Shown: positions 15,157 through 50,171, counted from the first letter of the stretch. The stretch is 63,042 bases of DNA from an uncultured Candidatus Saccharibacteria bacterium (GCA_964644965.1 CAZXYN010000006.1:1-63042), one strand, 5' to 3'. The notes: generated from the sequence alone by a model not told the origin. Program-made: numbers and translations.

Positions 15157-15159
15157 ATT

Positions 15160-15651
15160 GTCAGATAATCCATAAGCCGGGTTTTGTTTTAGCCAATCAT
15201 CTATCTAGTTACGCAATTGCTCACGTAATCGAGCGGATCTTATGGCGAAGTCCTGGCGGGAAACCTTATGTAGAACATCGCCTCCTTGCAGCAGACAGGG
15301 TTTACCTCCTCTGTACGTCACCGCACAGAGCTGTGGGCTCTTACCCCACTCGTTTCACCCTCACCCCGCACCTGAAATGGTTCAATCTTACGATTGATCC
15401 TGTGCTTTCTACTGACCCAGGACGGATTACTGGATCGTATGTTCACACGTCGCCAGTGTGCAAGCACTAACCATTTCAGGTGCGGAGCAGTTTCGTTTCT
15501 GTGGCACTTTCCCTAGGGTCTCCCCCGGTTGCCGTTAGCAACTGTCCTTCCCTACGCTGCCCGGACTTTCCTCCCCGCACCTGAAACCACATGCTCGCTT
15601 GTAAACAATGCATCCGAGCTCAGGTGCGGGGCGATTAGCCGAAAATCTGAC
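15160..15651 (-). ncRNA. rnpB: RNase P RNA (bacterial type A), relatively long
   Basis: The minus strand carries GGGGAGGAAAGTCCGGGCAG (P4 5' strand, around 15555-15578). It also carries ACAAAACCCGGCTTATGG (P4 3' strand, around 15168-15185), a P3 hairpin, and GGGTGAAACGAGTGGGGTAAGAGCCCACAGC (P10-P12 region). P1 pairs GTCAGAT (5') with ATCTGAC (3'). End coordinates are approximate, within about 10 nt. Confidence 0.85.
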
Positions 15652-16584: not shown

Positions 16585-17217
16585 CTAACCAATCCCCAGC
16601 AGGAACAATGTTATATCTTGGTTCAGATTCAAGACAACCGGGCCAATAAACTGCCAACCGACAAATATTAGTAAGAAGATCGCCCCTAGCCCCAATGTCT
16701 CTATGGAGCGTAGTACTCTCTGCAGAGGCTCTGGCGAGAACGCATAGAGTAACCTAGACCCATCCAGTGGTGGGAAAGGAATCATATTGAACACAAACAG
16801 CGCCACGTTAACTAGTGTAAAGATAACGACAAAGTCCGACCAAAAATTGGTAGTAACAAAACCTAGTTGATATATAAGTCCGCTGACACAGGCCAACGCA
16901 AGGTTCGTCAGAGGCCCGGCTATTCCTATGAGCGCAGCGCCAAATTCTTCGTACTTAACTCTGGTTGGATTGAAAGGCACTGGCTTGGCAGCAAAAATCG
17001 GTGGTAATCCTAACAGAATCATTACCATAGGCAACAAGGCTGTCGTGAAAATATCAATGTGCTTTAGGGGATTAAGCGTCAGACGACCCTCTTGTGCAGC
17101 CGTATCATCACCCAACCAATTACCAACAAATGCATGCATCGCCTCATGGAAGCTCATACCAATCAGCATCGTTACAAGCAAAAATATAAGCTGTTGGCCA
17201 CTAAAATCTTGAAACAT
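16585..17217 (-). CDS. Site-2 protease family (peptidase M50) membrane metalloprotease
   Basis: HEAMHAF (HExxH) lies in the first TM region and there are multiple TM helices. I chose the start at MFQDFSG (ATG at 17217) because the longer track ORF (to 17349) overlaps the rpmB promoter and start. Confidence 0.75.
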   Translation of the reverse strand: MFQDFSGQQLIFLLVTMLIGMSFHEAMHAFVGNWLGDDTAAQEGRLTLNPLKHIDIFTTALLPMVMILLGLPPIFAAKPVPFNPTRVKYEEFGAALIGIAGPLTNLALACVSGLIYQLGFVTTNFWSDFVVIFTLVNVALFVFNMIPFPPLDGSRLLYAFSPEPLQRVLRSIETLGLGAIFLLIFVGWQFIGPVVLNLNQDITLFLLGIG

Positions 17218-17246
17218 CTGCTGTCTAGTATAGCAGCACTTACCCC

Positions 17247-17275
17247 TTGACCAAATTGCCAAAAACAGATACAAT
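17247..17275 (+). promoter_or_regulatory. Promoter of rpmB
   Basis: TTGACC (17247-17252), a 17-nt spacer, then TACAAT (17270-17275). AAAGGAA precedes the ATG at 17303. Confidence 0.6.
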
Positions 17276-17302
17276 ACATGACTGAATCTAAAGGAAATAA
17301 CT

Positions 17303-17494
17303 ATGCAACGCTGCGATCTAACCGGTAAGGGCAAACAGTACGGCCACAATGTGAGCTTTTCTCAGCGCCACACCCAAAAAATCTGGAAGCCTAACCTTCA
17401 GACCAAGACATTTGTCGTAGATGGCAAAAAGGTCACTATGAAACTCAGCACCCAGGCTATCCGTACGCTCAAGAAAAAAGGCATTATAGCCTAA
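17303..17494 (+). CDS. rpmB: 50S ribosomal protein L28
   Basis: 63 aa, MQRCDLTGKGKQYGHNVSFSQRHTQKIWKPNLQ... Confidence 0.9.
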   Translation: MQRCDLTGKGKQYGHNVSFSQRHTQKIWKPNLQTKTFVVDGKKVTMKLSTQAIRTLKKKGIIA

Positions 17495-17552: not shown

Positions 17553-20500
17553 CTACTGGATTATCTGATAGTCGAATGAGTAAACCACGTTTGGACTTGG
17601 TGCATCTACGAAGTGGATTCTGAATTCGGTTGCTGTCCGCTCAACATAGTAGTTCACAGCGGCCGCGTTCTGGTTGGTAGGGGTTAGCGTGACCCGAGGC
17701 TGTGCCGAGTACGGACTACCGAACACTAGGCGAACCTGTTGGCCTGCCGTAGGTGTTGCACCAGATGTGTAGGTAACTGTTCCGGCTGTATCGTTACCAC
17801 TGATAGATGCATTTGCGCCTACTGGAGTTGACGCTGTTGGCACTGAACCGCCAGAGACAATCTTGCCGTTTACCTTGATGCCTAGCACCTCGGCTTGACC
17901 TGCGACTGTAAGGTTACCGCCGATTGAAACATTGCCAATTACGGTCAGTTTAGCCAGCGTGGCTGGGCCACTTACATTCAGCTGAGTAAACATACCACTG
18001 TTAAGACGACTCTCTACATTGCCAAGTCGAGCATCATTCTGCTGCACCTGCACATCAAGCTGCTGCACAGCCCGGGTAAGTACCGCTGTCAGCTCTCGGT
18101 ATTTAAAGCTAACCAGAGTTCCATCCTCTTGATATTCACCAAGTAGCGGATTGACTGCCACACCTTCTTCGGCTATAAATCCAAAGTCGTGATTACCACT
18201 CTCTCTCCAGTTGAATTCACGAGGTATTAACTGACGAATAGTATCCAGACCCATTGATATGTTGGTAATGTCTTTCTTTTTTGCGGCTGTTGATGCACAG
18301 CGCCCAAAGACAGTTGGCAGGCCGTATATAGAAGCATCACCCCAGCAGGCGGTACCACTTCCCTGGGTACCTGTTTGGGCTGAAGCTAGCCAGCCGTTCG
18401 CCAACACACCTCCACTGACAGCTAAGTACTGTCCACTGCTATAATCACTCAGAACCGGACCTGCGGCGCCACCAATCCGCATGGCACCAGCCGAGTCAAT
18501 CAGAATACGTTGGCTTCCATTGTAAGTAAAACCAATGCCTGTATTACTTATCGTACCAAGCGCCCACGGGTTGGTGGCGGTATCGTTATCGAGGAAAACG
18601 ATATGAGAATCATTGGCATTTATTTGTAATCCTAGGGTAGGACCTGCAAAAATTCTAAGTTTTTCATAGCCGTCACTACTAAATGCAATCTCATCTTGTG
18701 ATGATGAATACATACCGGTATTACCGTTAACACCGCTCCAGGTGAAGGCTGGTGCAGAAGCGGAGCCCACGGTTGATGCGATAAACTGCCCACTAGTAGT
18801 TGTGCTGGTGCCATTATTTATATTGCCGAAGTTAGAGGTAATGGAACCCGCATCTAGTGCACCTGTACCGAGAATATTTGCGTACGAACCGCTAGCAAGT
18901 GAGTTATTCGCTATTGTTCCAAAGCCAAGTGTCGTGCCATTTAGCCGTAGTACATGCCCATCAGATCCAGCTATAATGTCGTCAACAACCCCTGATGTGC
19001 CGGCGCTACGACCTAGTACTGAGTTTGCAGCTGAGTCAACTAGTTTTGCCTTAGAGATAGTTCCTGAGCCAACGGTAAGCACACCAGTACTAGATATTGA
19101 CCCGTCACCGCTGAGTGCACGTGTAACCCACTGTGTGCCATCGCCAATCAGTAGATTTGCCGCTGTAGCTGTTGTTGAGCCAAGCTGTGCGCCATTTATC
19201 CGAGCCACTGTTGGGTCAGGATAGGTACCAGAAAGATCACCACCCGCCGCGCCGCCAGGGGACGCACCAGAGCCAGCGATACTACAATCAGACCAAGTTG
19301 GCGCATTACCCGTATTGCCCACCAGACAGTCGCCGCTACCACCCACACCTGTTACACCAAACGTGCCTGTGCCATTTCCAAAGAGAAGGCCGTATTGGGT
19401 GAATGTCCCTGCTCCGGTACCGCCATATGCTACCGCAAGCGTACCTGTGGAAACATTGCTTGCATTCAAGTTCGTAAGTGAAGCACCAGATCCAGAGAAC
19501 AGAGTGGCCGTGACCGTTCCAGTCACCTGGAGAGCTGTGCTTGGTGATGTATTACCAATACCAACTCTGTTCGTAGAAGCATCGACAAATAAGGTATCGG
19601 TATCGACACTGAGGTTAATGCTAGAAGCAACATCAACAGATGTACTACTTACGGAAAGCTTATTCGCGCCATCTGCAAAGAGCTGCAATACACCGCCAGT
19701 TGTATAGACAACACGACCCTGGCCGCCGTTTGCGGCACCAAGCCTTACCTCAGAGTCAAATGATCCATCTGTAGTAACAGCCAGTGGACCGTTATGCACA
19801 TGTAGCCGGGTTCCGGCTGCTGGCGAGGCGGTTCCTACACCAACTCGATTCCCAGTAGCGTCCACAAAGAAAGTATCTGTATCAACCGTAAGATTATCTA
19901 CTACTGTGAGACTACCATTAAATGTAGCCGCCATGGTACTAAGATCACCTTGCAACATCACATTACTGCCACTACCAATGCGCAGTTGGTTACTGACGTT
20001 GTTGGCAGAGGCATCAATGTTGTAGCCGATGATGACATTACTTGAGCCGGTTGTAAGATTATCCCCCGCCTGATAGCCGAGTAGGAGGTTGTTTGAGCCA
20101 GTAGACAGGGCAACGCCTGCATCCGTGCCAATAAGGGTGTTGTTAGAGCGGGAGGCACCAGAGCCAGAGCCAGCGTTAGTACCAATCGCGACATTGTTTT
20201 GTCCAGCGGTATTTCCCTGGAGAGCCCATGACCCGATAGCAATGTTGCCATTAGTACCCCCTTGCTGGCTGAAAGCAGCAGCATAACCGATAGCAATACT
20301 ATCGTTAGGGTTTGTGGCCGTAGTCAAGGCATCGTGCCCAATGGCCACATTACGTGCACCGGTAGTGATACTATCACCAGCATTACTACCCATGGCAATA
20401 TTGCTGGTTCCGGACGACAGTGCATTGAGCGAGTTAACACCCAGGCCAACATTATTACTAGCATTGGCGGTTATACGAGCAATCTCGGTACCAGCACTGT

Positions 20501-23500
20501 TCTGCAGCAAAATCAGTGGATTACTGCTGGACTGCGTGCCATTAGCCCGGATTAGCAATTGCGTTTGGTTGGCGGAGCCAACGACTGCTAGTTTGGCGTT
20601 GAGGTTGGAGGTAGTGCCAATACCAACTTGGTTGTTGGTAGCATCAACGTGGAGGGTGTTAGTGTCAACTGTCAGGTTACTGACAACCGTAAGTGTGCCA
20701 TTAAACTGTGCTGCCAGGGTGCTGGTGCTGCCCTGTAGGATGCCACCTATACGAAGTTCATTAGATACGGTTGCACTTGAGGCATTGAGATCGTGTCCTA
20801 TTATTATGTTGTTGTCACCTGTGGTGATATTGTCACCAGCCTGGTAACCAATCAAGATATTATTGTCTGCGGTTGTCAGTAGCGCACCAGCGTTACGACC
20901 CAATATAACACTATTATTTATTTGCGGATTAACCCCGCCGTTTGCTGCACCGCTACCGATGGCAACGTTTCCGCTACCGTCAAGATTATTTGACAGTGCA
21001 CCGCTACCGATGGCAACGTTTGCACTTGCAGACTGCTGGTACCGACTAGCCTGATAGCCAATGGCGACGTTATCGACATCATTAGTGGCAGTTGTAAGTG
21101 ATTCATAGCCGAGTGCTACGTTTCTACCGCCAGTGTTTAAAGCATCACCGGCATTATGACCCATTACGGTGTTATCGAAGCCCGTTGATATGGCATTAAG
21201 TGTATTTGCACCAAGTCCTATATTACCGTTACCGACTGTCAGTCTACCGATCTCCGTACCACTACTGTTTTGGAACAAGATCAGTGGGTTTGTATAAGAC
21301 TGTGTGCCATTAGCTCTAATCAGTAGCTGTGGTTGGTTTGCTGAGCCAACGACTGCCAGTTTAGCACCGAGGTTGGATGTTGTGCCGATACCAACTTGGT
21401 TGTTGGCGGCATCAACGTGGAGGGTGTCTGTATCAACCGTCAGGTTACCATTAACCGTCATAGCCCCAGCCAGGTAACTAGCATCAGTGCTTTCACTGTA
21501 GATAGCCCAGTCACCGGACGGCTGGGTGTAGATGTCGGTGGCCAGCCAGAGACCAATCTGGTTGGTGGTGCGGGCTGAGTTTTGGTTGGCGATAGCTACG
21601 CCGACCGAGTTGGTGATGACACCACCGGAGCTGACGGTTGGGGCTTCGGCCAGAACGCTGAAGTAGCGGCCAACTGTTGATGAGGCACTAATGAAGCCAG
21701 TGGATTGTAAGCCAGCCGCAATATTGAGGTTGCTGGTGCCGGTGTAGGATACCTCGCCCCGAGCACCAACCAGCCAGGCACTACCTAGGTTGGCACTGGC
21801 TGAGCCAACATGGCTTCTAGAACCAAAGTACTGGGCAGTTGAAGCACTGCCAGGGCTAGGTGTGACCGATGAGTTCAGGCCGTAGATAGCACCAGTGGTA
21901 GCAGTTGACGTAGTGGTAACCGCTAGGGTCTGGCCACTGGCGTTGACAGCTGAGCTGACCGAAAGGGTACCTGAGTAGGTACCAGCCCCGGTGCTACTGA
22001 TACTTAGACGGGTGGTGCCACCTGTCTCTAGGTTCAGGTCGTAGGCGTCGTTGGTGCCGATGGTCATGGCAGACGTGAAGCTGTTGCCGCCTTGGAGGAT
22101 GTCGCCGCCTGATGCGGTAATACAGTTTTTCCAGCTGCCGCCTTCATAGCAGCGGAACTTACCAGCGTTGGAGTTGTAGTACATGCCACCGTTGCTGCCG
22201 GTTGGGTCACCGCTGTTGGTTTTGGTGTCGAGGACGAGCAGACTGCCGGTAGTGTCGGAGGTGCCGATACTAAGATTGCGGTTTATGTGGACTCCTGTCC
22301 AGTCAATATCCAGAATACCGCCATTAGCAGTCAACTGGATGCTTGATTCATCATTGTCAAAGAGTAGGGACATGTTACCACCTGATTCAATGGTTGCTTG
22401 ACTGGAGCTGCCAGCGCCTAGAGCCATGTGGACATTACCGGTGCTGTTACCTACCTGAAAGTGGATGAAGGGGTCGATGAAGGTAGTGGTGTTGATGCCG
22501 ACACGGTTGTTTACCGCATCAACAAACAAGGTATCACTGTTTACAGTTAAGTTGCCGTTGGCGGCTAGGGTCATGCGGTTTGTATTGTTAGTCATGAAAT
22601 TAAATGCGCCATTGTTGATGGTACCTAAGGTCATGGCGGTGGTGCCACCCAGGTTGTTGCCACCTTGGAGGATGTCACCGCCAGCTGGACAGTTGTTGGC
22701 AGTGGTACAGATAGTATAAGTCCCGGCAGAAGCATTAGGCAGTTCATAGGTGACGTTTGCTCCGAGGCTGTTAGGTGCCCGCAGAGTGGCGATGTTACTG
22801 CTCGTTGAGGAGGCAAAGCTAAGCTGACCTTGGAATGAGTTGCTAAAGCCAAGCCTAGTGACACCAGTGTTGGTATTGACACTGAAGACCGGTAGGGTGT
22901 TGCCAGCAGTAACCTGGAAAGTACTATCTGACCAACCCTGGGCAGTTACAGTAATGTTTTGGGTATCGGCGTTGAAGAGGGTGTTACCGTTAGATCGATT
23001 AATGAAGAAGGCATCAGTGTTGTTATTGGTGTTTTGGAAGGTGGCTGTGTTTCCAGAGTAAGTGAGACCACCAGAGCTGGCAAGGCTGAGGCGGGTGATG
23101 TTATTGGTCATTAGGTTTAGGGCGCCATTGTTGATGGTACCTAAGGTCATGGCGGTGGTGCCACCGAGGTTGTTACCGCCTTGGAGGATGTCGCCAAATC
23201 CAGTAACTGCCCCATTGAGCTGATTCAATGTGACGAACTCATTATTATTTACTGCGTCTGCACCGGACACCGTACCGGTAAATGTGCCTGTTCCAGTTAC
23301 GCTCAGATTACCGCCAGATAAGATGAGGTTGGTACTAGCGTCTAGTGTTAGTGTGCCGGCTCCTTGGAGCAGATATGAATCGGTAATGTTCTTTGCAGCA
23401 TCAAATACAGCGAGCCTGTTGGCGGTGCCTGTGCCAGTAATATCACCAACGCCGCCGACGCCAGGAGTAGCTATACAGTCTTTCCAAGCACCACCCTCAT

Positions 23501-26500
23501 AACACCTGATCTTGCCGGCGTTAGAGTTGTAGTACATACCACCGTTCTGGCCGGCTGGATCACCAGTGTCGGTTTTGGTGTCGAGGACCAGGAGGGTGCC
23601 GGTGGTGTCGGATTCACCAACTACTACTAGGTTGTTCGAAGTATCTATACTAAATAAATTAACGTTTGTTGAATTCTGGAACCGTAGAGCGTTCGTACTG
23701 TTTGTGGTAGTACGGAAAAGTGCTTCACCGCCATCTGCAATGTTGAATAATGATACAGCGCCAGAGTCTGATACATTTAATGCGTTGTTAGCGTTGTTGC
23801 TAGTTAGACCAAGTACACTTAGACGAGCAACTGAGCTGGCACCAACGCTTAGGCCATCCTCTACTTCTAAATTGCCGTCTATATTAATGACACCACTTGT
23901 CTGGGTAATAAGTGAATCACCAATTATGTTGCCCGCACCAAAGACAGCTAGTTTCCCAGAGGTGCTTTGACCTGTCCAGGATATTTCTATATAGCCATTA
24001 CCAACATTACCGTCCACATATGTTCCACCCGTTGGAATGAGCGATGAACCGCCGCCACCACTACCGCCACCGGTGAGAGACCCAGCGCCACCGCCGCCGC
24101 CACCATATATACCGCCGCCACCACCGCCACCACGATCACCAGCACTACTGCCGCCATTGCCTCCCTGTCCAAGAGATCCAGCTGTCGAGCTACCGCCACT
24201 GCCTGCCGCACCACCTGCTATAGTCGTAGCACCAAAACCAGGCCTAGCAGTAGTAGCACTGCTTCCGTCGGGATTACCACCGTTACCTGCAGCACCTGAT
24301 GTCGTAGTACCTCTACCACCGCCACCACCAGCAACAACAACCCTATCTGCTAACGCATTGCCACCCCGTCTAATGTCACTAGCGCCACCGCCACCGCGTG
24401 TAGTAGCAGAGTTACCATTACCACCACCATTCCAACCACCAGTGTTGGTTGCTGTGGTTCCACCGACATATATATAAAGTGTTTCGCCAGGCGTCACAGG
24501 TATAGACGACTCTATGTTTGCTCCAGTACCTCCAGAACTACCCGTTGAGCCACCAGAGGCACCTGCTGCCCTAATATTTAGCTCTGTAATACCAGCTGGC
24601 ACTACAAACGTCTGCTGAGAGCCTGTGTAGTTAAAGTTCTGACTGCCACCAGTAGCCGTACCAGCCGTTAGAACCACGGCACCACTTGAGTCGGGTAACT
24701 CATATGTCCTGTTGGCTGTGAGGCTTGTAGCCTGCAGACTTGCAACAAATGAATTCGTACCGTTCAGGATTCTTAGAACGCCGTCAGTGCTAGATGAGCT
24801 GCCGACAGAAACTCCATCGACAAATGTCTTTGCACCAGCAAAAGTCTGTGTACCTACGCTTACAAGTCCTGGGTATGCCTGGTCTGCTGTCTGCAGGATA
24901 ATCTCTGAACCGTTAATAACCGCACCGTTGGCGCTCTTTGTTAACGAGTCAATCGTACCAATAGTACTAATACCACTGCCCCCACCTGCGTCATCACTAC
25001 CACACACAAGATCGCCATTAGCATCAGTTTCTAGCGCCGTACAGCTGATAAAATCTTCAAATCTAAGCGACCCATCTACATGGAAGGTTGCTTGTGGACT
25101 AACGGTTCCTATACCGACAGCATTTGCAGATGCATCGGCGAACAAAAGATTGGTGGCTACAATAAGATCAGCACCATTGACTACACTCAATGCGCTCCAA
25201 TCTAGTCGTAGTCTTGCGGCTCCAGACGTATAGAAGTCTAGTCTATTCGCGTCAATGTCATACTGAACCCTGCCATTACCGCCACCGGCACCAAAATATA
25301 TCGCGCCACTATGGCCGGAGGCAATATTCAGTTCAATGTTCGAACCACTCGACACACCGTCACCTATACTAAGGTCAACATTTGGTGATGAGTTATTGAT
25401 GCCAATCCGTCCATTCTGTGCATCTACAAATAGTGTGTTGGTATTGAACGCAACATCACCATCGGCTTGAACAGTTATTCGGCTTACTCCGCTGGTCTCA
25501 AGATTAAGATCAAAAGCATCATTTGTACCGATGGTCATAGCAGCTGTGAAGCTATTACCATTCTGCAGGATATCGCCCATACCACTGACACCGGCACAGT
25601 TGCCGGAGGTGGTACAGACATCGTTGCCGCCCTGCTGGAGTGCGCCGGTGAAGTTGGCAGTGGCTGCATTATATAGAGCAACGTTAACACTCAGGCGAGC
25701 GTCGGCAACAGTGCCGCTAGTGATTTGTTCACCCGCAATTGCAATGTTTGTATTACTGCTAGCAGTCAGTCTACCCTTTGCATCGACCGTAAATGTTGCA
25801 ACCTGCGAGGCCGAGCCATAGGTCCCAGCACTGACACTAGTGTCATCAAGTGTGAGCGTAATTGTGTTGGTCCCATTGTCTGTTATGCCTACTTGTCCCG
25901 CCGTGCCTTGTAGTGTGAGTGCACCACTAAGTGTATTAAGCGAATCCACGCCTCCAAGACCGCCTATTGCACCGTCAAGCTGGCTGAGTGTCACGAATTC
26001 ATCGTTGTTTATAGCATCCGCACCAGAGACTGTGCCGGTGAACGAACCACTACCCGTAACGCTCAAATTTCCACCGGCTAAGATGAGATCGGTGCTAGCA
26101 TCGAGAGTCAGAGTTCCTGTGCCCTGCAGTAATGTAGAGTTGACTATATTCTTAGCTGCATCGAAGACAGCCAGGCGGTTTGCGGTACCAGTACCGCTCA
26201 TGTCGCCGCCGACTGGACAGTTGCCAGCAGTGGTACAGACATCGTTGCCGCCCTGCTGGAGTGCACCGGTGAAGTTGGCAGCGGCATTGAGCAGCGCAAC
26301 GTTTGCAGTAAGCCGTGCGTCAGCAATCGTACCAGATGATATGTTTGATCCATTCAAATTAGTAAGTAGCGCACCGCTTACTGCTGGCAGTTGTGAGCTG
26401 GCATTGAGCTGCACAAGTTGGCTGGCGCCGTTAAAGGTGTTGCCCTGCAGCGTAACACCACTATGCAGGCTGAGGGTAATGGTGTCAGAGCCATTATCCG

Positions 26501-29500
26501 TTATGGTTATCTGATTAGCAGTTCCTTGAACCGTTAGCGCCCCATCTAGGCTATTTAGACTCACTACACCTGGGTCGATAGCACCATTGAGCTGGCTGAG
26601 TGTCACAAACTCGTTACTGTTAACCGCATCCGCACCGGAGACTGTGCCGGTGAATGAACCTGCTCCGGCAACACTAAGATCACCGCCTGCCAGAATCAGG
26701 TCTGTGCCACTATCGAGCGTGAGTGTTCCTGTGCCCTGAAGAAGAGTTGAGTTGACGATATTTCTTGCAGCGTCAAACATAGCAAGTCTGCTGGCAGTAC
26801 CTGTCCCGGTGATGTCACCACCAGAAGCACAGTTGCCAGCAGTGGTACAGACATCGTTGCCGCCCTGCTGAAGTGCGCCGGTGAAGTTGGCAGTGGCTGC
26901 ATTATATAGAGCAACATTGGCGCTGAGGCGGGCATCGTTAACCGTACCGGAAGCGAGGTTAGTCGCATTGAGATTGGTCAGATTAACACCAGAAAGAACC
27001 GGTAATTCGCCGCTGCCATTCAATTGAACCAACTGGTTAGCACCATTAAAGGTGTTGCCCTGAAGAGTGACACTGCTGTCGAGGCTAAGAGTGATAGTAT
27101 TAGTGCCGTTATCTGCGACTGTAATCTGACTAGCCGTTCCCTGGATGGCTAACGCGCCGTCCAAGCTGTTCAGACTGATCACGCCAGCGCCACCACCACC
27201 GCCAGTGTCGGCACTGTCGGCACACATAAGATTGCCGCTGCCGTCTGTGGTCAGCAACCCGCCATTAGCAAAAGTCGTACAGTTAAGCCCGTGGAGCCTT
27301 ATGGTACCTGTATTAGATATACTGAACCGAGTCGTGCCGTCAGTCCTGAGGTTGAGCGCAAAAGCGTCATTGGTACCAATATCCATAGCAACCCCGAAGC
27401 TGTTGCCGCCTTGGATAATATCGCCAACACCACCTACACCAGCACAGTTGCCAGAAGTACGACAAACAGTTGCATCCACAGCAATGCTACTGGCATCCAC
27501 CGTGATACCATCGCCTTGGCCAACATTCAGGCTAATGGTACCGCCAAGCGCAACAGAGCCACCGTCAATAAGACCGTTACCGGCAGTTACCGTCAGAGCA
27601 CCGTTGTTCGTAAGTCGAGCGTTGTCCAACGTACCGGAAGTAATTTGGTTTGCATCTAAGGCAATGTTTACCGTACTAGCGGCCGTCAGCCGTCCTTGGG
27701 CATCAACCGTAAATGTAGCAACCTGCGAGGCCGAACCATAGCTGTTTGCTGCCACTCCGGAGTTTGGCAAGCTGAGAGTAATTTGGTTCGTACCGTTATC
27801 AGCAACCGTAAGATGACCAGCTGTTGCTGCCAGCGTCAACGCGCCATCAAGCGTGTTGAGCGAGCTTACACCTCCGATACCGGCGATTGCATCATTCAGC
27901 TGGCTGAGTGTCACAAACTCGTTATTGTTGGCTGCATCTGCACCAGACACCCGCCCAGTGAATGAGCCTGCTCCAGTAACGCTTAAGTCACCGCCCGCTA
28001 GAACTAAACTGGTACCGCCGTCGATTGTAAGCGTCCCTGTTCCCTGGAGTAGTACTGAGTTGACAATATTCTTGGCTGCGTCAAATACAGCCAGGCGGTT
28101 TGCGGTGCCTGTGCCGGTGATGTCACCAACACCACCAACGCCGGCACAGTTGCCAGCAGTGGTACAGACGGTGTTATCAATAGCCACAGTTATGCTACCG
28201 GCACCGTTTGTAATATTTATACCCGTACCGCCCGTGAGTGTTGCGGCAGTTGGTGCGCCAGAGCCATCGCCAATGAGTAGCTGCCCATTAGAAAGCACGC
28301 CGCTGGCAGTGATAGCACCAGTGCCATTACCAAACAAAATACCGCCTGCTGTCAGTGTGTTGGCTCCGGTACCACCACTGCTCACGCTCAGCGCACCGGT
28401 TAATGTAAGTCCTGCGAATGTAGGTGATGAGGTCGCTGAAATATTCTGAATAGTATTGACCGTGCCAAGGTTGACAGAGAAGTTTGTGCTATTGAACTGC
28501 GCGATACCCTTCTGTGAAGTCGATGCATCGTCGATAGTAATCACTCCGCCGGCTCCTGTCGCGTTGTTCATAGTCACCACACCAGTCTGACCGTCAATTG
28601 AAGCTACGCCACCACTGCCAGGACAGGCAGCAAAAATCGGCGCACCGGCTGTAGACACAAGACACTGCCCAGCCACACCAGATGATACTTGTTGAGGTGT
28701 TGCTGCACCATTTCCAACCAAAACCGCATTTGCAGTAAGTGAACTGGCACCAAGTCCACCCGAACCTACACTAAGCGGAGCGCTCAATATCAGACCAGCG
28801 AATGTAGGTGTAGCAGTAACACTGATCCCTTGAGATGTATTAACAACACCAGAGGCAACTGAGAAGTTGGTTGCATTGAATTGAGCGATACCCTTTGCAA
28901 CTGTAGAGGCATCATTAATCGTAATCGTGGAGCCAAGACCAGTGGCGTTTGCAAGTGTTAGATTACCGTTAAGCCCGTTAAGCGTATCAACCGCGGCCGT
29001 ACCCGCACAGTTGCCAGCACTTGTACAAACAGAGTAGCTTCCAGCGCTCAGCGCCGGGAAGTTTATGGTTGTATTTGCTGTCGGTGAGGCAAAGCCAATG
29101 ACCGTAGAGTTTGGTCCACTAGTACGATTCAGTGTATTAACGTTTAAAATACCACCCACGGTAGTGTCACCGTTAGCAGCAACAACAAAACGGTTTATAC
29201 CGCCAGCCTGTAGTTGTATTAGGTTGCCACCGCCAGTATCGTTGATAAAAATCGATGCATCGGCAGTGTTATCCGTCTGAGCTGAACCCGGCGCGAGCTG
29301 AACTGATTGTCCACCACCTGCAACACAAGTAATTCCTGTGGTACAGATTGTCTGGGTGGCCGGGCCAGAGGTAGGTAGCTGAAAACTTCTGCCATTTACG
29401 GTAAAGATGATGTCATCACTACCAGCATCTATGTTGACATCCTGGCCAGGTGCAACCTGTCTTACTCTGTTCGTGTAGATAATACCGATGTTATCAAGAA

Positions 29501-30131
29501 CTACATCGCCGTTTATAGATAAACCAGAGAAGCTTGGTGCGGACGTAGGTGCAATCGACTGCGGCAAACTTAGGCTAGCGATTCCGTTGGCTGTCGTGAC
29601 GCTTATGTCACCAGGAACTCCGTTTACACCAAGCAGACCACTGTTTGAGATAGTCGTACCGTTAATACTGATACCGCCGCCCGGAACTAGAGTAATTGCC
29701 CCTGTCTGTCCCTGGAGACTTGTTACACCGCCAGTCTGAGGTACGGCTACATTTTGTTGTTGAGACCTTGCAAGCGATACAAACTCCGTACCGTTAAAGT
29801 ACTGGAGCGTTGACGAGGCACTATCGAAGACAAGCGTACCTGCACTAGCGTTCTCTGGGAGTTCTGATGGTGCTAGGTAAAATTGACCGTTTACCTGTAA
29901 CTGAGCATTTACAGTTAGCTTTTGGTTCTTTCCAAGTCCAATAACTTTTTCGCTATCACCCGTCTCTGGCAGAGTAGCTGATGATGGGATTGTAGTAGCG
30001 TTATCGTTTCGACCCGCCGCGAGATAGACAAGTCCTACCCCTGTTGCGATGAATAGCGATATCAGCAAAACAAACAGCAAAAAATTACGACTAGAGCCGA
30101 GGATTTTTTTGACTATTTGTGAGTTGTTCAT
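17553..30131 (-). CDS. Giant (4192 aa) N-terminally membrane-anchored repetitive surface fibre/adhesin protein
   Basis: One uninterrupted 12.6 kb ORF with an N-terminal signal-anchor (FLLFVLLISLFIATGVGLVYLAA).
- At least six copies of a ~100-aa module: CTTAGNCAG..GDITGTGTANRLAVFDAAKNIVNS.LLQGTGTLT...LAGG.LSVTG.GSFTG.VSGADA.N..EFVTLSQL.
- A glycine-rich domain: FNYTGSQQTFVVPAGITELNIRAAGASGG...GGGGGGIYGGGGGGAG.
- Two YYNSNAGK.RCYEGG.WK.C motifs.
- Two tandem ~245-aa modules with YadA-head-like NVAIG repeats.
- A peptidase-S74-like chaperone segment near the C-terminus. Confidence 0.9.
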   Translation of the reverse strand: MNNSQIVKKILGSSRNFLLFVLLISLFIATGVGLVYLAAGRNDNATTIPSSATLPETGDSEKVIGLGKNQKLTVNAQLQVNGQFYLAPSELPENASAGTLVFDSASSTLQYFNGTEFVSLARSQQQNVAVPQTGGVTSLQGQTGAITLVPGGGISINGTTISNSGLLGVNGVPGDISVTTANGIASLSLPQSIAPTSAPSFSGLSINGDVVLDNIGIIYTNRVRQVAPGQDVNIDAGSDDIIFTVNGRSFQLPTSGPATQTICTTGITCVAGGGQSVQLAPGSAQTDNTADASIFINDTGGGNLIQLQAGGINRFVVAANGDTTVGGILNVNTLNRTSGPNSTVIGFASPTANTTINFPALSAGSYSVCTSAGNCAGTAAVDTLNGLNGNLTLANATGLGSTITINDASTVAKGIAQFNATNFSVASGVVNTSQGISVTATPTFAGLILSAPLSVGSGGLGASSLTANAVLVGNGAATPQQVSSGVAGQCLVSTAGAPIFAACPGSGGVASIDGQTGVVTMNNATGAGGVITIDDASTSQKGIAQFNSTNFSVNLGTVNTIQNISATSSPTFAGLTLTGALSVSSGGTGANTLTAGGILFGNGTGAITASGVLSNGQLLIGDGSGAPTAATLTGGTGINITNGAGSITVAIDNTVCTTAGNCAGVGGVGDITGTGTANRLAVFDAAKNIVNSVLLQGTGTLTIDGGTSLVLAGGDLSVTGAGSFTGRVSGADAANNNEFVTLSQLNDAIAGIGGVSSLNTLDGALTLAATAGHLTVADNGTNQITLSLPNSGVAANSYGSASQVATFTVDAQGRLTAASTVNIALDANQITSGTLDNARLTNNGALTVTAGNGLIDGGSVALGGTISLNVGQGDGITVDASSIAVDATVCRTSGNCAGVGGVGDIIQGGNSFGVAMDIGTNDAFALNLRTDGTTRFSISNTGTIRLHGLNCTTFANGGLLTTDGSGNLMCADSADTGGGGGAGVISLNSLDGALAIQGTASQITVADNGTNTITLSLDSSVTLQGNTFNGANQLVQLNGSGELPVLSGVNLTNLNATNLASGTVNDARLSANVALYNAATANFTGALQQGGNDVCTTAGNCASGGDITGTGTASRLAMFDAARNIVNSTLLQGTGTLTLDSGTDLILAGGDLSVAGAGSFTGTVSGADAVNSNEFVTLSQLNGAIDPGVVSLNSLDGALTVQGTANQITITDNGSDTITLSLHSGVTLQGNTFNGASQLVQLNASSQLPAVSGALLTNLNGSNISSGTIADARLTANVALLNAAANFTGALQQGGNDVCTTAGNCPVGGDMSGTGTANRLAVFDAAKNIVNSTLLQGTGTLTLDASTDLILAGGNLSVTGSGSFTGTVSGADAINNDEFVTLSQLDGAIGGLGGVDSLNTLSGALTLQGTAGQVGITDNGTNTITLTLDDTSVSAGTYGSASQVATFTVDAKGRLTASSNTNIAIAGEQITSGTVADARLSVNVALYNAATANFTGALQQGGNDVCTTSGNCAGVSGMGDILQNGNSFTAAMTIGTNDAFDLNLETSGVSRITVQADGDVAFNTNTLFVDAQNGRIGINNSSPNVDLSIGDGVSSGSNIELNIASGHSGAIYFGAGGGNGRVQYDIDANRLDFYTSGAARLRLDWSALSVVNGADLIVATNLLFADASANAVGIGTVSPQATFHVDGSLRFEDFISCTALETDANGDLVCGSDDAGGGSGISTIGTIDSLTKSANGAVINGSEIILQTADQAYPGLVSVGTQTFAGAKTFVDGVSVGSSSSTDGVLRILNGTNSFVASLQATSLTANRTYELPDSSGAVVLTAGTATGGSQNFNYTGSQQTFVVPAGITELNIRAAGASGGSTGSSGGTGANIESSIPVTPGETLYIYVGGTTATNTGGWNGGGNGNSATTRGGGGASDIRRGGNALADRVVVAGGGGGRGTTTSGAAGNGGNPDGSSATTARPGFGATTIAGGAAGSGGSSTAGSLGQGGNGGSSAGDRGGGGGGGIYGGGGGGAGSLTGGGSGGGGSSLIPTGGTYVDGNVGNGYIEISWTGQSTSGKLAVFGAGNIIGDSLITQTSGVINIDGNLEVEDGLSVGASSVARLSVLGLTSNNANNALNVSDSGAVSLFNIADGGEALFRTTTNSTNALRFQNSTNVNLFSIDTSNNLVVVGESDTTGTLLVLDTKTDTGDPAGQNGGMYYNSNAGKIRCYEGGAWKDCIATPGVGGVGDITGTGTANRLAVFDAAKNITDSYLLQGAGTLTLDASTNLILSGGNLSVTGTGTFTGTVSGADAVNNNEFVTLNQLNGAVTGFGDILQGGNNLGGTTAMTLGTINNGALNLMTNNITRLSLASSGGLTYSGNTATFQNTNNNTDAFFINRSNGNTLFNADTQNITVTAQGWSDSTFQVTAGNTLPVFSVNTNTGVTRLGFSNSFQGQLSFASSTSSNIATLRAPNSLGANVTYELPNASAGTYTICTTANNCPAGGDILQGGNNLGGTTAMTLGTINNGAFNFMTNNTNRMTLAANGNLTVNSDTLFVDAVNNRVGINTTTFIDPFIHFQVGNSTGNVHMALGAGSSSQATIESGGNMSLLFDNDESSIQLTANGGILDIDWTGVHINRNLSIGTSDTTGSLLVLDTKTNSGDPTGSNGGMYYNSNAGKFRCYEGGSWKNCITASGGDILQGGNSFTSAMTIGTNDAYDLNLETGGTTRLSISSTGAGTYSGTLSVSSAVNASGQTLAVTTTSTATTGAIYGLNSSVTPSPGSASTAQYFGSRSHVGSASANLGSAWLVGARGEVSYTGTSNLNIAAGLQSTGFISASSTVGRYFSVLAEAPTVSSGGVITNSVGVAIANQNSARTTNQIGLWLATDIYTQPSGDWAIYSESTDASYLAGAMTVNGNLTVDTDTLHVDAANNQVGIGTTSNLGAKLAVVGSANQPQLLIRANGTQSYTNPLILFQNSSGTEIGRLTVGNGNIGLGANTLNAISTGFDNTVMGHNAGDALNTGGRNVALGYESLTTATNDVDNVAIGYQASRYQQSASANVAIGSGALSNNLDGSGNVAIGSGAANGGVNPQINNSVILGRNAGALLTTADNNILIGYQAGDNITTGDNNIIIGHDLNASSATVSNELRIGGILQGSTSTLAAQFNGTLTVVSNLTVDTNTLHVDATNNQVGIGTTSNLNAKLAVVGSANQTQLLIRANGTQSSSNPLILLQNSAGTEIARITANASNNVGLGVNSLNALSSGTSNIAMGSNAGDSITTGARNVAIGHDALTTATNPNDSIAIGYAAAFSQQGGTNGNIAIGSWALQGNTAGQNNVAIGTNAGSGSGASRSNNTLIGTDAGVALSTGSNNLLLGYQAGDNLTTGSSNVIIGYNIDASANNVSNQLRIGSGSNVMLQGDLSTMAATFNGSLTVVDNLTVDTDTFFVDATGNRVGVGTASPAAGTRLHVHNGPLAVTTDGSFDSEVRLGAANGGQGRVVYTTGGVLQLFADGANKLSVSSTSVDVASSINLSVDTDTLFVDASTNRVGIGNTSPSTALQVTGTVTATLFSGSGASLTNLNASNVSTGTLAVAYGGTGAGTFTQYGLLFGNGTGTFGVTGVGGSGDCLVGNTGNAPTWSDCSIAGSGASPGGAAGGDLSGTYPDPTVARINGAQLGSTTATAANLLIGDGTQWVTRALSGDGSISSTGVLTVGSGTISKAKLVDSAANSVLGRSAGTSGVVDDIIAGSDGHVLRLNGTTLGFGTIANNSLASGSYANILGTGALDAGSITSNFGNINNGTSTTTSGQFIASTVGSASAPAFTWSGVNGNTGMYSSSQDEIAFSSDGYEKLRIFAGPTLGLQINANDSHIVFLDNDTATNPWALGTISNTGIGFTYNGSQRILIDSAGAMRIGGAAGPVLSDYSSGQYLAVSGGVLANGWLASAQTGTQGSGTACWGDASIYGLPTVFGRCASTAAKKKDITNISMGLDTIRQLIPREFNWRESGNHDFGFIAEEGVAVNPLLGEYQEDGTLVSFKYRELTAVLTRAVQQLDVQVQQNDARLGNVESRLNSGMFTQLNVSGPATLAKLTVIGNVSIGGNLTVAGQAEVLGIKVNGKIVSGGSVPTASTPVGANASISGNDTAGTVTYTSGATPTAGQQVRLVFGSPYSAQPRVTLTPTNQNAAAVNYYVERTATEFRIHFVDAPSPNVVYSFDYQIIQ
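19950..21450 (-). repeat. Intragenic tandem duplication (~750 bp period) encoding the two YadA-head-like modules
   Basis: For example, 20560-20700 and 21310-21450 align with roughly 85% identity by eye: ...GAGCCAACGACTGC.AGTTT.GC...GAGGTTGGA.GT.GTGCC.ATACCAACTTGGTTGTTGG...CATCAACGTGGAGGGTGT... Confidence 0.7.
25590..28150 (-). repeat. Intragenic repeat modules (~620 bp period) with near-identical ~85-bp cores
   Basis: ACAGTTGCC.G..GTGGTACAGACATCGTTGCCGCCCTGCTG.AGTGC.CCGGTGAAGTTGGCAG recurs at about 25597, 26218 and 26829. Longer CTGGCTGAGTGTCAC.AA.TC... blocks recur at about 23215, 25975, 26590 and 27897. Confidence 0.75.
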
Positions 30132-50066: not shown

Positions 50067-50083
50067 GAGCTAGCTCCTGTTAA

Positions 50084-50171
50084 CTCAATATTCAATTTAC
50101 AATTTACAATTTTCAATAAACGCATCGAACCCGTGCTGTTTGATAATTGATAATTGATAATTGATAATTGG
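50084..50171. repeat. CAATTNN heptad-array intergenic element, copy B
   Basis: The left arm is CTCAATATTCAATTTACAATTTACAATTTTCAATAAA and the core is CGCATCGAACCCGTG. The right arm is CTGTTTGATAATTGATAATTGATAATTGATAATTGG. It lies between the pilT stop and the pilC start. Confidence 0.8.

What the first reader, a model, noticed from the sequence alone, without database searches (positions are those of the whole stretch)
17553..30131. 4192-aa mosaic surface fibre: N-terminal anchor, Cys-loop repeat modules, glycine-rich domain, YadA-head-like repeats and a tail-spike chaperone
One intact ORF takes up 20% of the window. It combines elements that normally belong to different systems.
- At least six ~100-aa modules are built around CTTAGNCAG...GDITGTGTANRLAVFDAAKNIVNS...EFVTLSQL.
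- A glycine-rich domain (FNYTGSQQTFVVPAGITELNIRAAGASGG...) is of the kind seen in phage receptor-binding proteins.
- Two YYNSNAGK-RCYEGG-W motifs are present.
- Two tandem ~245-aa modules are full of NVAIG/NIAIG repeats like trimeric-autotransporter head domains.
- A C-terminal phage-type trimerisation chaperone is present.

The only membrane anchor is an N-terminal signal-anchor helix, so the fibre would project C-terminus-out from a monoderm cell. In a putative obligate epibiont this is a prime candidate for a host-attachment or host-range determinant. Its domain mosaic is not a described adhesin class, as far as I can tell from sequence alone.
Basis: partly seen in the sequence, partly recalled or inferred. 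Interest (0 to 1): 0.7.

Follow-up and report, generated by a model that had tools for sequence, protein, structure and literature searches.

The report
Membrane-anchored phage-tail-fibre-like giant surface protein
A Saccharimonadales (TM7) bacterium encodes an intact 4192-residue, membrane-anchored surface protein built largely from phage tail-fibre parts, which makes it a good but untested candidate for how this probable epibiont grips its host cell.

Summary
The ORF is real: 17553..30131 (-), 4192 aa, intact, 20% of the window. It sits among housekeeping genes of a Candidatus Saccharimonadales chromosome, and its GC3 matches theirs.

- one N-terminal hydrophobic helix;
- 15 cysteine pairs;
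- a glycine-rich domain (Pfam PF12810);
- two YYNSNAGK-RCYEGG-W motifs;
- two ~256-aa NVAIG modules;
- a Peptidase_S74 chaperone domain.

Corrections:
- The GDITGTGTANRL...EFVTLSQL module occurs four times, not six.
- The NVAIG modules belong to a large phage tail-fibre family, not detectably to YadA heads.
- The S74 domain is not terminal. A conserved ~147-aa domain follows it. This domain ends 14 other large proteins of the family and looks weakly like an H-type lectin.

The parts that can be identified therefore come from one toolkit, phage tail fibres, rather than from different systems. The protein belongs to a large family of modular giant proteins; all named relatives found are from Saccharimonadales or Patescibacteria MAGs.

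Best reading (confidence about 0.55): an N-in/C-out signal-anchored, probably trimeric fibre whose distal end binds host-surface glycans. Function, oligomeric state and S74 self-cleavage are untested. I rate it a new variant of a known kind, interest about 0.55.

The parts
17553..30131 (-). Whole gene, 4192 codons plus stop
   Evidence: Intact ORF. GC3 is 0.447, against 0.40-0.47 for housekeeping genes of the window.
30015..30083 (-). N-terminal hydrophobic helix, aa 17-39 (FLLFVLLISLFIATGVGLVYLAA), preceded by K8, K9 and R15. Predicted signal anchor.
   Evidence: It is the only 19-residue window with Kyte-Doolittle above 1.6. It is conserved in P0001. Family members have long tails before the helix.
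29010..30014 (-). Membrane-proximal region, aa 40-374, with Cys loops 263/269 and 369/375
   Evidence: 72% identical to P0001 from a related Saccharimonadales MAG.
28218..29009 (-). Tandem ~128-aa repeat, aa 375-509 and 503-638
   Evidence: Self-comparison gives 53-59% identity.
25452..28175 (-). Super-repeat region, aa 653-1560. It holds Cys loops (CTTAGNC), three GDITGTGTANRL...EFVTLSQL modules (aa 669, 1105, 1309), GDILQGGN modules (903, 1519), SLNSLDGALT modules and SYGSASQVATFTVDAQGRLT motifs.
   Evidence: A short stretch is similar to annotated phage tail fibre proteins. 1990 protein clusters share these modules.
23964..24638 (-). Glycine-rich domain, aa 1832-2056
   Evidence: Pfam PF12810 ALK_LTK_GRD E 1.3e-11. 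phrog_7388 E 2.6e-22.
23466..23621 (-). First LLVLDTKT...MYYNSNAGKIRCYEGGAWKDC motif, aa 2171-2222, followed by the fourth GDITGT module (aa 2229-2305)
22098..22268 (-). Second MYYNSNAGKFRCYEGGSWKNC motif, aa 2622-2678
   Evidence: 72% identical to the first copy.
20730..21497 (-). NVAIG module 1, aa 2879-3134. Repeat period is 17 residues, N-x-A-I-G-x2-A-x4-T-x-G-x2.
   Evidence: phrog_6002 E 1.4e-32 and phrog_4636 tail spike E 5e-29. More than 397 homologues, many ending in PF13884. AF2 pLDDT is above 90 for residues 100-260 of the modelled aa 2871-3215 (aa ~2970-3130). BFVD gives 81 matches with E<1e-3.
19719..20729 (-). NVAIG module 2, aa 3135-3471
   Evidence: 52-69% identical to module 1. 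tblastn finds ~30% identity to cyanophage, pelagiphage and roseophage tail fibre or virion structural proteins.
18294..19718 (-). Region before the chaperone, aa 3472-3946, with DTDTLFVDA..NRVGIG motifs and Cys pairs 3602/3616 and 3929/3945
   Evidence: phrog_5906, phrog_5668 tail fiber (E 8e-9) and phrog_8215 hits. Homologous stretches occur in 17 of the 149 top-listed family representatives retrieved.
17997..18293 (-). Peptidase_S74 intramolecular chaperone domain with its coiled coil, aa 3947-4045. Putative dyad is Ser3947 (18291-18293) and Lys3952 (18276-18278).
   Evidence: Pfam PF13884. Ser and Lys are invariant in the 53-sequence alignment A2. AF2 pLDDT is above 90. Foldseek finds 3gw6 and 7dc3. 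The family profile hits 8jov, 7dc3, 6f45, 3gud and 3gw6.
17556..17996 (-). Conserved terminal domain ('Cext'), aa 4046-4192: a beta-rich linker, then GKIVSGG.VP, then a ~105-aa beta-sandwich ending ...YSFDYQIIQ
   Evidence: It is found at the extreme C-terminus of 14 other proteins. AF2 predicts a beta-sandwich with pLDDT 60-85. H_lectin PF09458 scores below threshold in 6 of 15 members. Foldseek gives 4q56 at E 0.2.

Best explanation
The gene encodes a resident (not prophage) cell-surface fibre of a Saccharimonadales bacterium, assembled from phage tail-fibre building blocks.

Proposed mechanism, with the status of each step marked:
1. The N-terminal helix acts as an uncleaved signal anchor. 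The short N-terminus stays in the cytoplasm and about 4150 residues are exported. (Inferred from hydropathy and from the family-wide tails before the helix.)
2. The 15 cysteine pairs form local disulfide loops outside the cell. (Inferred.)
3. The last part to emerge, the S74 chaperone domain with its coiled coil, brings three chains into register and nucleates folding of the fibre from the C-terminus backwards, as in phage tail spikes. (Homology is shown. Trimerisation is inferred from the established function of S74 domains in endoNF, T5 pb1 and MyRF.)
4. The result is a long fibre. At the ~0.055 nm per residue of T4 and T5 fibres (my own knowledge) it would be about 200 nm, comparable to the cell's diameter.
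5. The distal end and side domains bind surface glycans of the host or partner cell. Candidates are the terminal H-lectin-like domain, the region before the chaperone, the glycine-rich domain and the YYN-Cys domains. (Inferred.)

Whether the Ser3947/Lys3952 dyad still cuts is open. The four S74 domains that are followed by the terminal domain have all lost the otherwise near-universal Asp next to the serine. I therefore lean slightly to the view that the chaperone is retained and holds the terminal domain at the tip.
For: Context and origin:
- Flanking genes are housekeeping: IF3, L20, RNase P RNA, ThrRS, MiaA, gyrase, T4P.
- GC3 equals that of the housekeeping genes.
- Homologues come from Saccharimonadales MAGs.

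Topology:
- There is a single N-terminal hydrophobic helix.
- Family members have 20-80-aa segments before that helix.
- Cysteines are strictly paired, and almost all relatives have an even number.

Phage-fibre nature:
- PHROG tail spike, tail fibre and virion protein hits.
- tblastn matches to annotated phage tail fibres.
- More than 397 NVAIG homologues, mostly with a C-terminal PF13884.
- 81 significant fold matches in BFVD.

S74 domain:
- Pfam hit above the cut-off.
- Ser and Lys are invariant.
- Confident AF2 model that matches endoNF and MyRF chaperone structures.
- The family profile hits five solved S74 domains.
- The Ser-Lys dyad is essential and cleavage depends on trimerisation, per PMC8326128.

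Binding role:
- The terminal domain is always at the far end from the anchor.
- H-type lectin signals are recurrent but weak.
- Family member P0251 carries CBM_4_9 just before the same terminal domain.
- Polyglycine-rich domains serve host recognition in phage S16 (reference cited in PMC12143355).
- Surface adhesins are essential for epibiotic growth in a cultivated saccharibacterium (PMC10633639).
- Very large surface proteins have been proposed as host-recognition factors in other Patescibacteria (PMC13059738).
Against: - No experiment bears on localisation, oligomeric state, cleavage or ligand.
- The giant's own segment before the helix is short (16 aa), and L-A-A|G after the helix could be a signal-peptidase site. 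Release or a different anchorage is therefore not excluded.
- The lectin assignment is below threshold in every test (best E 0.0013, under the Pfam cut-off; Foldseek E 0.2).
- Both AF2 models are monomers. Only parts of each are confident, and about half of the protein (aa 40-1830, 2057-2878) has no fold assignment.
- S74 chaperones have only been characterised folding in a cytoplasm. Working outside the membrane after Sec export is unproven.
- The epibiotic lifestyle of this particular organism is assumed from its phylogeny.
Confidence: 0.55

Rival explanations
1. Reverse orientation. The N-terminal helix is a cleaved signal peptide, and the conserved terminal domain is a cell-envelope sorting or anchoring module, analogous in logic to SLH domains, LPXTG signals or T9SS C-terminal domains. 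The fibre would then project N-terminus-out.
For: The terminal domain sits invariably at the extreme C-terminus of 15 proteins whose upstream parts vary widely, which is a hallmark of sorting or anchoring domains. A possible L-A-A|G signal-peptidase site follows the helix.
Against: Family members have 20-80-aa tails before the helix, and the hydrophobic stretches are 20-23 residues long; both are typical of signal anchors, not signal peptides. S74 chaperones mark the distal, receptor-binding end in every characterised fibre. The weak similarities of the terminal domain are to lectin and phage fibre-tip domains, not to wall-binding domains. The N-terminal region is the better conserved end (72% against 31% with the related MAG), as at the attachment end of phage fibres.
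Confidence: 0.12
2. It is a surface fibre, but not a host adhesin. It could be a protective coat or spacer, a phage decoy, a means of self-aggregation or biofilm formation, or a carrier of polysaccharide-degrading activity like a tailspike depolymerase.
For: The architecture only shows that the protein is extracellular and fibrous. Relatives in L008 carry NosD/Beta_helix domains typical of depolymerases. No ligand is known.
Against: No enzymatic domain is detected in this protein by Pfam, NCBIfam or PHROGs. The module types are those used by phages for receptor binding. A family member has a carbohydrate-binding module.
Confidence: 0.2
3. It is a tail-fibre gene of a prophage, a tailocin or another phage-derived particle.
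For: There are many phage-type modules and an S74 domain.
Against: No phage genes flank it; the neighbours are IF3, L20, RNase P RNA, ThrRS and MiaA. It has an N-terminal membrane helix and a native GC3. There is no relative in IMG/VR. At 4192 aa it exceeds known fibre genes several-fold.
Confidence: 0.04
4. It is an assembly artefact: a repeat expansion or collapse, or a chimeric join, that creates a falsely long ORF.
For: The related MAG breaks its homologue across two contigs. CP065013 shows three contiguous same-strand ORFs that look like one frameshifted giant. This shows that such genes are hard to assemble.
Against: The DNA repeats here are only 61-86% identical. Mismatches are biased to third codon positions. 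GC3 is fairly even along the gene. There is no stop in 12.6 kb. Both ends and the middle have separate Saccharimonadales or Patescibacteria homologues.
Confidence: 0.04

Closest known systems
Phage tail fibres and tail spikes with a C-terminal intramolecular chaperone (Peptidase_S74): K1F endosialidase endoNF (3gw6), T5 pb1, Salmonella phage S16 gp37 (6f45), GA-1 neck appendage (3gud), and cyanophage/pelagiphage 'NVAIG + S74' fibres
   Same: The S74 domain has the Ser-Lys dyad, the GFIAEE motif and the trailing coiled coil. The NVAIG repeat modules are homologous to those in hundreds of 300-600-aa phage-type fibres. The DTDTLFVDA..NRVGIG and SYGSASQV...GRLT motifs are shared with annotated tail fibres.
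   Different: It is anchored by its own membrane helix instead of docking to a baseplate. It is encoded among housekeeping genes. It is 4-10 times longer. The S74 domain is not terminal and lacks the canonical Asp after the serine, and a further conserved domain follows it.
MyRF / MrfA (eukaryotic membrane-tethered transcription factors with an S74-type ICA domain; 7dc3)
   Same: These are cellular, membrane-anchored proteins that use a phage S74 domain to trimerise. It is the best structural match to the model here (prob 1.0, TM 0.54 over 116 columns). The family profile hits it at E 6.5e-15.
   Different: The MyRF anchor is C-terminal to the ICA domain, and cleavage releases a cytoplasmic transcription factor. 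Here the anchor is about 3900 residues upstream and everything is extracellular. MyRF keeps the D-x-R motif.
Trimeric autotransporter adhesins (YadA, BoaA 3s6l, EibD, SadA)
   Same: Both are long, repetitive, presumably trimeric surface fibres with short-period N-x-A-x-G coils. 3s6l is the top, though non-significant, PDB fold hit. Automatic pipelines label some relatives 'trimeric autotransporter adhesin' or 'YadA-like head'.
   Different: There is no YadA anchor, stalk or Hep_Hag hit. The repeat period is 17 residues; YadA heads have 14 (my own knowledge). There is no outer membrane to insert a barrel into. Anchorage is N-terminal, not C-terminal.
Giant surface proteins and fibrillar adhesins of Patescibacteria (Absconditicoccaceae proteins over 1500 aa; essential adhesins of Southlakia epibionticum)
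   Same: They are very large, membrane- or signal-targeted, repeat-rich proteins in episymbiotic ultrasmall bacteria, proposed to mediate host recognition (PMC13059738; PMC10633639).
   Different: The described proteins carry FN3, VCBS, dockerin, concanavalin-like or integrin-like domains. None of the papers found mentions S74, NVAIG fibre modules or the terminal domain seen here.
ALK/LTK glycine-rich domain (PF12810) and polyglycine-rich phage adhesins (S16 gp38)
   Same: The Pfam hit is above threshold. In phage S16 a polyglycine-rich domain performs host recognition (cited in PMC12143355).
   Different: Here it is an internal domain of a fibre, not a receptor ectodomain or a separate tip adhesin. 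The matching PHROG families have no assigned function.

Membership tests
Peptidase_S74 / C-terminal intramolecular chaperone domain proteins | Pfam PF13884 match above the gathering score | tested here: met
   25.7 bits for the whole protein and 29.3 bits for the tile, against a cut-off of 22, at aa 3949-3995.
Peptidase_S74 / C-terminal intramolecular chaperone domain proteins | Catalytic Ser-x4-Lys dyad | tested here: met
   S3947 and K3952 align with invariant columns of 53 sequences and of 73 domains. The dyad's role is taken from PMC8326128.
Peptidase_S74 / C-terminal intramolecular chaperone domain proteins | Canonical S-D-x-R-x-K motif | tested here: not met
   The giant has S-T-A-A-K-K. 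Asp is present in 64 of 66 terminal S74 domains and absent in all 4 domains that are followed by the terminal domain (Fisher p 1.6e-5).
Peptidase_S74 / C-terminal intramolecular chaperone domain proteins | The domain, with its coiled coil, ends the protein | tested here: not met
   151 residues follow the domain; 66 of 73 comparison domains have 40 or fewer.
Peptidase_S74 / C-terminal intramolecular chaperone domain proteins | Chaperone fold (alpha/beta core plus a long helix) | tested here: met
   AF2 pLDDT is above 90 for aa ~3950-4040. Foldseek gives 3gw6 at E 0.023 and 7dc3 at prob 1.0, TM 0.54.
Peptidase_S74 / C-terminal intramolecular chaperone domain proteins | Trimerisation-dependent self-cleavage | not testable with these tools
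   This needs expression and SDS-PAGE or mass spectrometry of wild type against S3947A and K3952A.
Phage tail fibre / tail spike (virion component) | Homology of fibre modules to virion fibre proteins | tested here: met
   phrog_6002, 4636 and 5668. tblastn to annotated tail fibres. 81 BFVD matches.
Phage tail fibre / tail spike (virion component) | Encoded in a phage or prophage genome next to tail or baseplate genes | tested here: not met
   The flanks are housekeeping genes. No IMG/VR relative was found. GC3 is native.
Trimeric autotransporter adhesins (YadA family) | C-terminal YadA membrane-anchor beta-barrel | tested here: not met
   No such Pfam hit on the whole protein or on tiles at E<=1. 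The C-terminus is S74 plus the terminal domain.
Trimeric autotransporter adhesins (YadA family) | YadA head / Hep_Hag and stalk repeats | tested here: not met
   No Pfam hit at E<=1. No TAA chain in the profile search of the PDB at E<=1.
Trimeric autotransporter adhesins (YadA family) | Left-handed parallel beta-roll head fold | tested here: inconclusive
   The AF2 coil has one short strand per 17 residues. The top PDB hit is 3s6l, but at E 0.43 and TM 0.22/0.41. Left-handed beta-helix acetyltransferases score similarly.
ALK_LTK_GRD glycine-rich domain (PF12810) | Pfam match above the gathering score | tested here: met
   45.4 bits against 24.5, E 1.3e-11, at aa ~1853-2035.
H-type lectin domain (PF09458) | Pfam match above the gathering score, or a significant fold match | tested here: inconclusive
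   The giant scores 14.1 bits (cut-off 24). 6 of 15 family members hit below threshold, best E 0.0013. Foldseek gives 4q56 at E 0.2. The PDB profile search shows no lectin.
Sortase-anchored (LPXTG) Gram-positive surface proteins | C-terminal LPXTG motif, hydrophobic tail and basic end | tested here: not met
   The C-terminus is ...YSFDYQIIQ. A genuine LPNTG protein lies elsewhere in the window, at 59236..61803.
Diversity-generating-retroelement target proteins | Template/variable repeat pair with adenine-specific mismatches, and a nearby reverse transcriptase | tested here: not met
   Repeat mismatches show no bias towards A. The only 'RVT_3' hit nearby is an RNase H-type protein.
Family of large modular surface proteins with an N-terminal anchor and the conserved terminal domain (defined here; named members are from Saccharimonadales) | N-terminal hydrophobic helix, shared repeat modules, and the terminal domain at the extreme C-terminus | tested here: met
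   15 proteins carry the terminal domain at the very end, and most have an N-terminal helix. 1990 clusters share the modules.

The most novel reading that the evidence does not exclude
An ultrasmall episymbiotic lineage has taken over the phage tail-fibre construction kit, including the S74 self-chaperone, to build cell-anchored fibres about 200 nm long. In effect the cell wears phage tail fibres. The S74 cleavage centre has been disabled (loss of the Asp), so the chaperone stays as a permanent trimeric neck that presents a new lectin-like tip domain. That tip, with the variable modules, sets which host cells the epibiont can attach to.
Probability: 0.25. Interest if true: 0.8.

Novelty: new variant of a known kind. 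Interest (0 to 1): 0.55.

Why it matters
How Saccharibacteria and other Patescibacteria recognise and hold their host cells is an open question. So far type IV pili and a few unrelated adhesins have been implicated by experiment.

This gene gives a concrete candidate with clearly separable parts:
- a signal anchor;
- swappable fibre modules;
- a chaperone whose cleavage can be assayed;
- a conserved terminal domain that can be expressed and tested for glycan binding.

If the model holds, host range in these bacteria would follow the same modular logic as phage host range. It would also show an S74 chaperone working outside the cytoplasm and possibly without cleavage. Finally, the terminal domain and the altered S74 motif are simple sequence markers for finding the whole family in metagenomes.

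Tried and rejected
- A full-length search of the 5.8-billion protein set timed out. Searches with pieces only list proteins under ~1200 aa, so full-length orthologues could not be retrieved that way.
- An exact look-up of the protein found nothing.
- phmmer of the whole protein and of three tiles against the PDB found nothing useful. Only family profiles reached solved S74 domains.
- NCBIfam gave no hit.
- tblastn of the glycine-rich domain against phage genomes found nothing, probably because of low-complexity masking.
- Genome, viral and metagenome contig scans gave only 4, 0 and 1 distant loci.
- Synteny is not conserved. The related MAG has IleRS/L21 upstream and ParA/ParB downstream.
- From memory, I suspected that P0235 and P0309 carry a Peptidase_G2-type chaperone before the terminal domain. 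Pfam did not confirm it, so I dropped the idea.
- A diversity-generating-retroelement explanation for the repeats was rejected.
- A prophage origin was rejected on context and GC3.
- No intrinsic terminator was found downstream of the gene. The upstream promoter was not resolved.
- One literature search was too unspecific to be useful.
Full report
**1. The observation**

The window contains one uninterrupted ORF on the minus strand, 17553..30131. It has 4192 codons and an ATG start, and the stop-to-stop frame extends only 24 codons further upstream. It covers 12,579 of 63,042 bases.

- Composition is Gly 15%, Thr 12%, Ala 11%, Ser 10%, Asn 9%.
- Only one segment is strongly hydrophobic: aa ~17-39, with a 19-residue Kyte-Doolittle maximum of 2.75. 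The rest of the protein never exceeds 1.6.
- All 30 cysteines lie in 15 local pairs. Eight are C-x5-C loops of the CTTAGNC type and seven are C-x8-18-C pairs.

Self-comparison confirms the repeat families:

- aa 375-509 / 503-638;
- four copies of the GDITGTGTANRLAVFD...EFVTLSQL module (aa 669, 1105, 1309, 2229; 78-80% identical);
- five copies of a different GDILQGGN module;
- four SLNSLDGALT modules;
- two MYYNSNAGK.RCYEGG.WK motifs (aa 2199, 2650);
- two large modules, aa 2879-3200 / 3135-3471, offset by 256 aa.

At the DNA level the copies are 61-86% identical. Their mismatches lie mostly at third codon positions and show no adenine bias. This speaks for a real gene under purifying selection. 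It speaks against repeat collapse and against a diversity-generating retroelement.

**2. Organism and context**

- The N-terminal 650 aa find 26 homologues. The named ones are all from Candidatus Saccharimonadales / Saccharibacteria MAGs, and the best (P0001) is 72% identical.
- The flanks are housekeeping genes. On one side lie a ComM-like ATPase, IF3, L20, RNase P RNA, an RNase H fusion and an M50-type peptidase. On the other lie an MBL-fold protein, MiaA, an Ogt-like protein and ThrRS. Gyrase, tRNAs and type IV pilus genes lie further out.
- GC3 of the giant gene is 0.447, within the 0.40-0.47 of those genes. Its higher overall GC comes from second codon positions, that is, from its amino-acid composition.
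- No relative exists in IMG/VR.

It is therefore a resident chromosomal gene, not a prophage gene.

**3. What the parts are**

*Profile searches on 500-aa tiles.*

- Pfam gives PF12810 ALK_LTK_GRD (E 1.3e-11) for the glycine-rich domain and PF13884 Peptidase_S74 (29 bits against a cut-off of 22) at aa 3949-3995. No YadA, Hep_Hag or anchor family appears even at E<=1.
- PHROGs gives hits across much of the protein: phrog_6002 virion structural protein (1.4e-32) and phrog_4636 tail spike (5e-29) for the NVAIG modules; phrog_5668 tail fibre (8e-9) for the C-terminal tile; phrog_31660 tail fibre for aa ~613-661; phrog_7388, 5811 and 1589 for the glycine-rich domain; and phrog_5906 repeatedly for the DTDTLFVDA..NRVGIG motif.
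- tblastn against 50,697 phage genomes matches the NVAIG modules at ~30% identity over 60-79% of 610 aa. The targets are annotated tail-fibre or virion structural proteins of cyanophages, pelagiphages and roseophages. The SYGSASQVATFTVDAQGRLT stretch matches 'phage-related tail fiber' proteins.

*The NVAIG modules.*

- One module has more than 397 homologues. They are typically 300-600 aa, and very many end in PF13884. One is annotated 'tail fiber domain-containing protein' from Saccharimonadales, and several are labelled 'trimeric autotransporter adhesin' by JGI.
- The family consensus is a 17-residue repeat, N-x-A-I-G-x2-A-x4-T-x-G-x2, followed by S-D-x-R-x-K...GFIAQE.
- An AF2 model built on that alignment is confident (pLDDT above 90) for residues 100-260 and shows one short strand per repeat.
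- Against the PDB its best match is the YadA-like head of BoaA (3s6l). The match is not significant (E 0.43), and left-handed beta-helix acetyltransferases score similarly.
- Against predicted viral structures there are 81 matches with E<1e-3 (best 7.5e-12). Many are named 'Peptidase S74 domain-containing' or 'intramolecular chaperone auto-processing domain' proteins. A few carry the automatic label 'YadA-like head domain-containing'.
- A profile of the family finds no trimeric autotransporter in the PDB.

By membership, however, these modules are phage-type fibre modules.

**4. The chaperone domain**

- In a 53-sequence alignment, Ser3947 and Lys3952 fall in the only invariant columns of the S74 region.
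- GFIAEE and the following coiled coil are also conserved.
- AF2 models aa ~3950-4040 at pLDDT above 90.
- The model's best PDB matches are the endoNF chaperone 3gw6 (E 0.023) and the MyRF ICA domain 7dc3 (probability 1.0, TM 0.54).
- The family profile hits solved S74 domains at E 3e-15 to 4.5e-5: 8jov, 7dc3, 6f45 and 3gud.

According to PMC8326128, the Ser-Lys dyad is indispensable, cleavage occurs just before the serine, it requires the trimer, and mutating the motif's Arg only partly impairs it. The giant therefore keeps what is known to be essential.

It differs in two linked ways.

- The Asp after the serine is Thr. Asp is present in 64 of 66 S74 domains that end their protein.
- The domain is followed by 151 more residues.

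All four S74 domains that precede the same downstream domain lack the Asp: the giant has ST, P0077 SL, P0245 SS and P0219 SN (Fisher p 1.6e-5). Whether this abolishes cleavage cannot be decided here.

**5.

Residues 4046-4192 form a beta-rich linker, a GKIVSGG.VP motif, and a ~105-aa domain ending ...YSFDYQIIQ. In every one it lies at the very C-terminus. Only four of them have an S74 domain in front of it. In the window only the giant has it.

- AF2 predicts a beta-sandwich with pLDDT 60-85.
- The only recurrent similarity is below threshold: Pfam H_lectin in 6 of 15 members (best E 0.0013), and Foldseek 4q56, the Helix agglutinin, at E 0.2.
- The PDB profile search is negative.

I treat 'lectin-like' as a lead, not a finding. 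Member P0251 has a CBM_4_9 carbohydrate-binding module shortly before the same terminal domain.

**6. The family**

- The super-repeat region (aa 640-1100) matches 1990 cluster representatives at E<=1e-3 and 104 at E<=1e-30. Many are 2000-4669 aa with 10-35 matched stretches.
- Proteins with the terminal domain mostly begin with a 20-80-aa low-complexity segment followed by one hydrophobic helix. Almost all have even numbers of cysteines. That is the pattern of type II signal anchors with a large disulfide-bonded ectodomain.
- Related loci hold a 5362-aa or longer ORF (L005). CP065013 has a run of three contiguous ORFs that looks like one frameshifted giant (L002). A 765-kb contig carries three consecutive giant genes, one of which has a helix, Beta_helix, S74 and the terminal domain (L008).
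- In the closest MAG, the 72%-identical N-terminal fragment (P0001) ends a contig. A C-terminal fragment with NVAIG repeats, S74 and the terminal domain (P0077; 31% identical over the chaperone and terminal domain) begins another. If both belong to one gene, the anchor end is much better conserved than the distal end, as in phage fibres. This is not proven.

**7. Mechanism**

The best-supported model is an N-in/C-out signal-anchored fibre.

- The C-terminal S74/coiled-coil segment emerges last from the translocon. It registers three chains and nucleates folding back towards the membrane.
- The distal end then presents the terminal domain, if the chaperone is retained, or a new tip at Ala3946, if it is cleaved.
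- The glycine-rich and Cys-loop domains serve as lateral binding or stiffening elements.

Homology, topology signals and family architecture are shown. Trimerisation, export route, disulfides, cleavage, length and ligand are inferred.

The literature in reach supports the general idea that large surface proteins and adhesins are central to patescibacterial episymbiosis. It contains no description of S74-bearing or NVAIG-type fibres in these bacteria.

**8. Verdict**

The finding is real and mostly well described. Its interpretation needs three corrections:

- the toolkit is phage-fibre, not a cross-system mosaic;
- it is not a YadA member;
- there is a conserved terminal domain behind a non-canonical S74.

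It is a new variant of known kinds (fibrillar surface adhesins; phage-type S74 fibres), and a member of a large family that, as far as the searchable literature shows, has not been characterised. Interest is moderate to high for specialists in episymbiosis and phage receptor-binding proteins. The function is untested.

Noticed in passing
window 59236..61803 (-): An 855-aa protein has a signal peptide and a C-terminal LPNTG sortase motif, hydrophobic tail and RRRH end. Its GC is 0.63 and its GC3 0.80, against 0.40-0.47 for the rest of the window. It looks like a recently acquired surface protein from a high-GC donor, possibly an actinobacterial host. No Pfam hit at 1e-5.
   Followed up: partly
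window 7348..10308 (-): A 986-aa protein has an N-terminal membrane helix and a Walker A motif (GQTGTGKST) but no Pfam hit at 1e-5. By eye it resembles a VirD4/TraG-type coupling ATPase of a type IV secretion system.
   Followed up: no
window 48843..53072 (-): Type IV pilus genes: PilC-like T2SSF (48843..50066) and PilB-like T2SSE with an MshEN domain (51303..53072). An unexamined ORF between them (50182..51255) could be a PilT-type ATPase by position only.
   Followed up: partly
window 5140..6777 (+) and 56008..58416 (-): Two further probable surface proteins (545 and 802 aa) carry N_BRCA1_IG / DUF11 Ig-like domains.
   Followed up: no
window 16585..17349 (-): An M50-type (site-2-protease-like) membrane peptidase lies directly downstream of the giant gene. 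A role in processing its membrane helix is conceivable. The pairing is not conserved next to the homologue in the related MAG.
   Followed up: partly
window 15673..16356 (-): An unusual fusion of pterin-4a-carbinolamine dehydratase with an RNase H / RVT_3 domain, next to the RNase P RNA gene at 15157..15650.
   Followed up: no
L008 1..22956 (JGI 3300076002, 765-kb contig): Three consecutive giant genes: one of 3295 aa or more with ALK_LTK_GRD, MAM and NosD/Beta_helix; one of 3651 aa with an N-terminal helix, Beta_helix, S74 and the same terminal domain; and one of 2736 aa or more. This suggests arrays of such fibres in some genomes.
   Followed up: partly
L002 9983..22600 (CP065013, complete Saccharibacteria genome): Three contiguous same-strand ORFs (872, 779 and 2568+ aa) overlap end to end. 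This is probably one giant homologue broken by frameshifts or sequencing errors.
   Followed up: no
P0198 and P0287 have other long tails but keep SD.
   Followed up: yes
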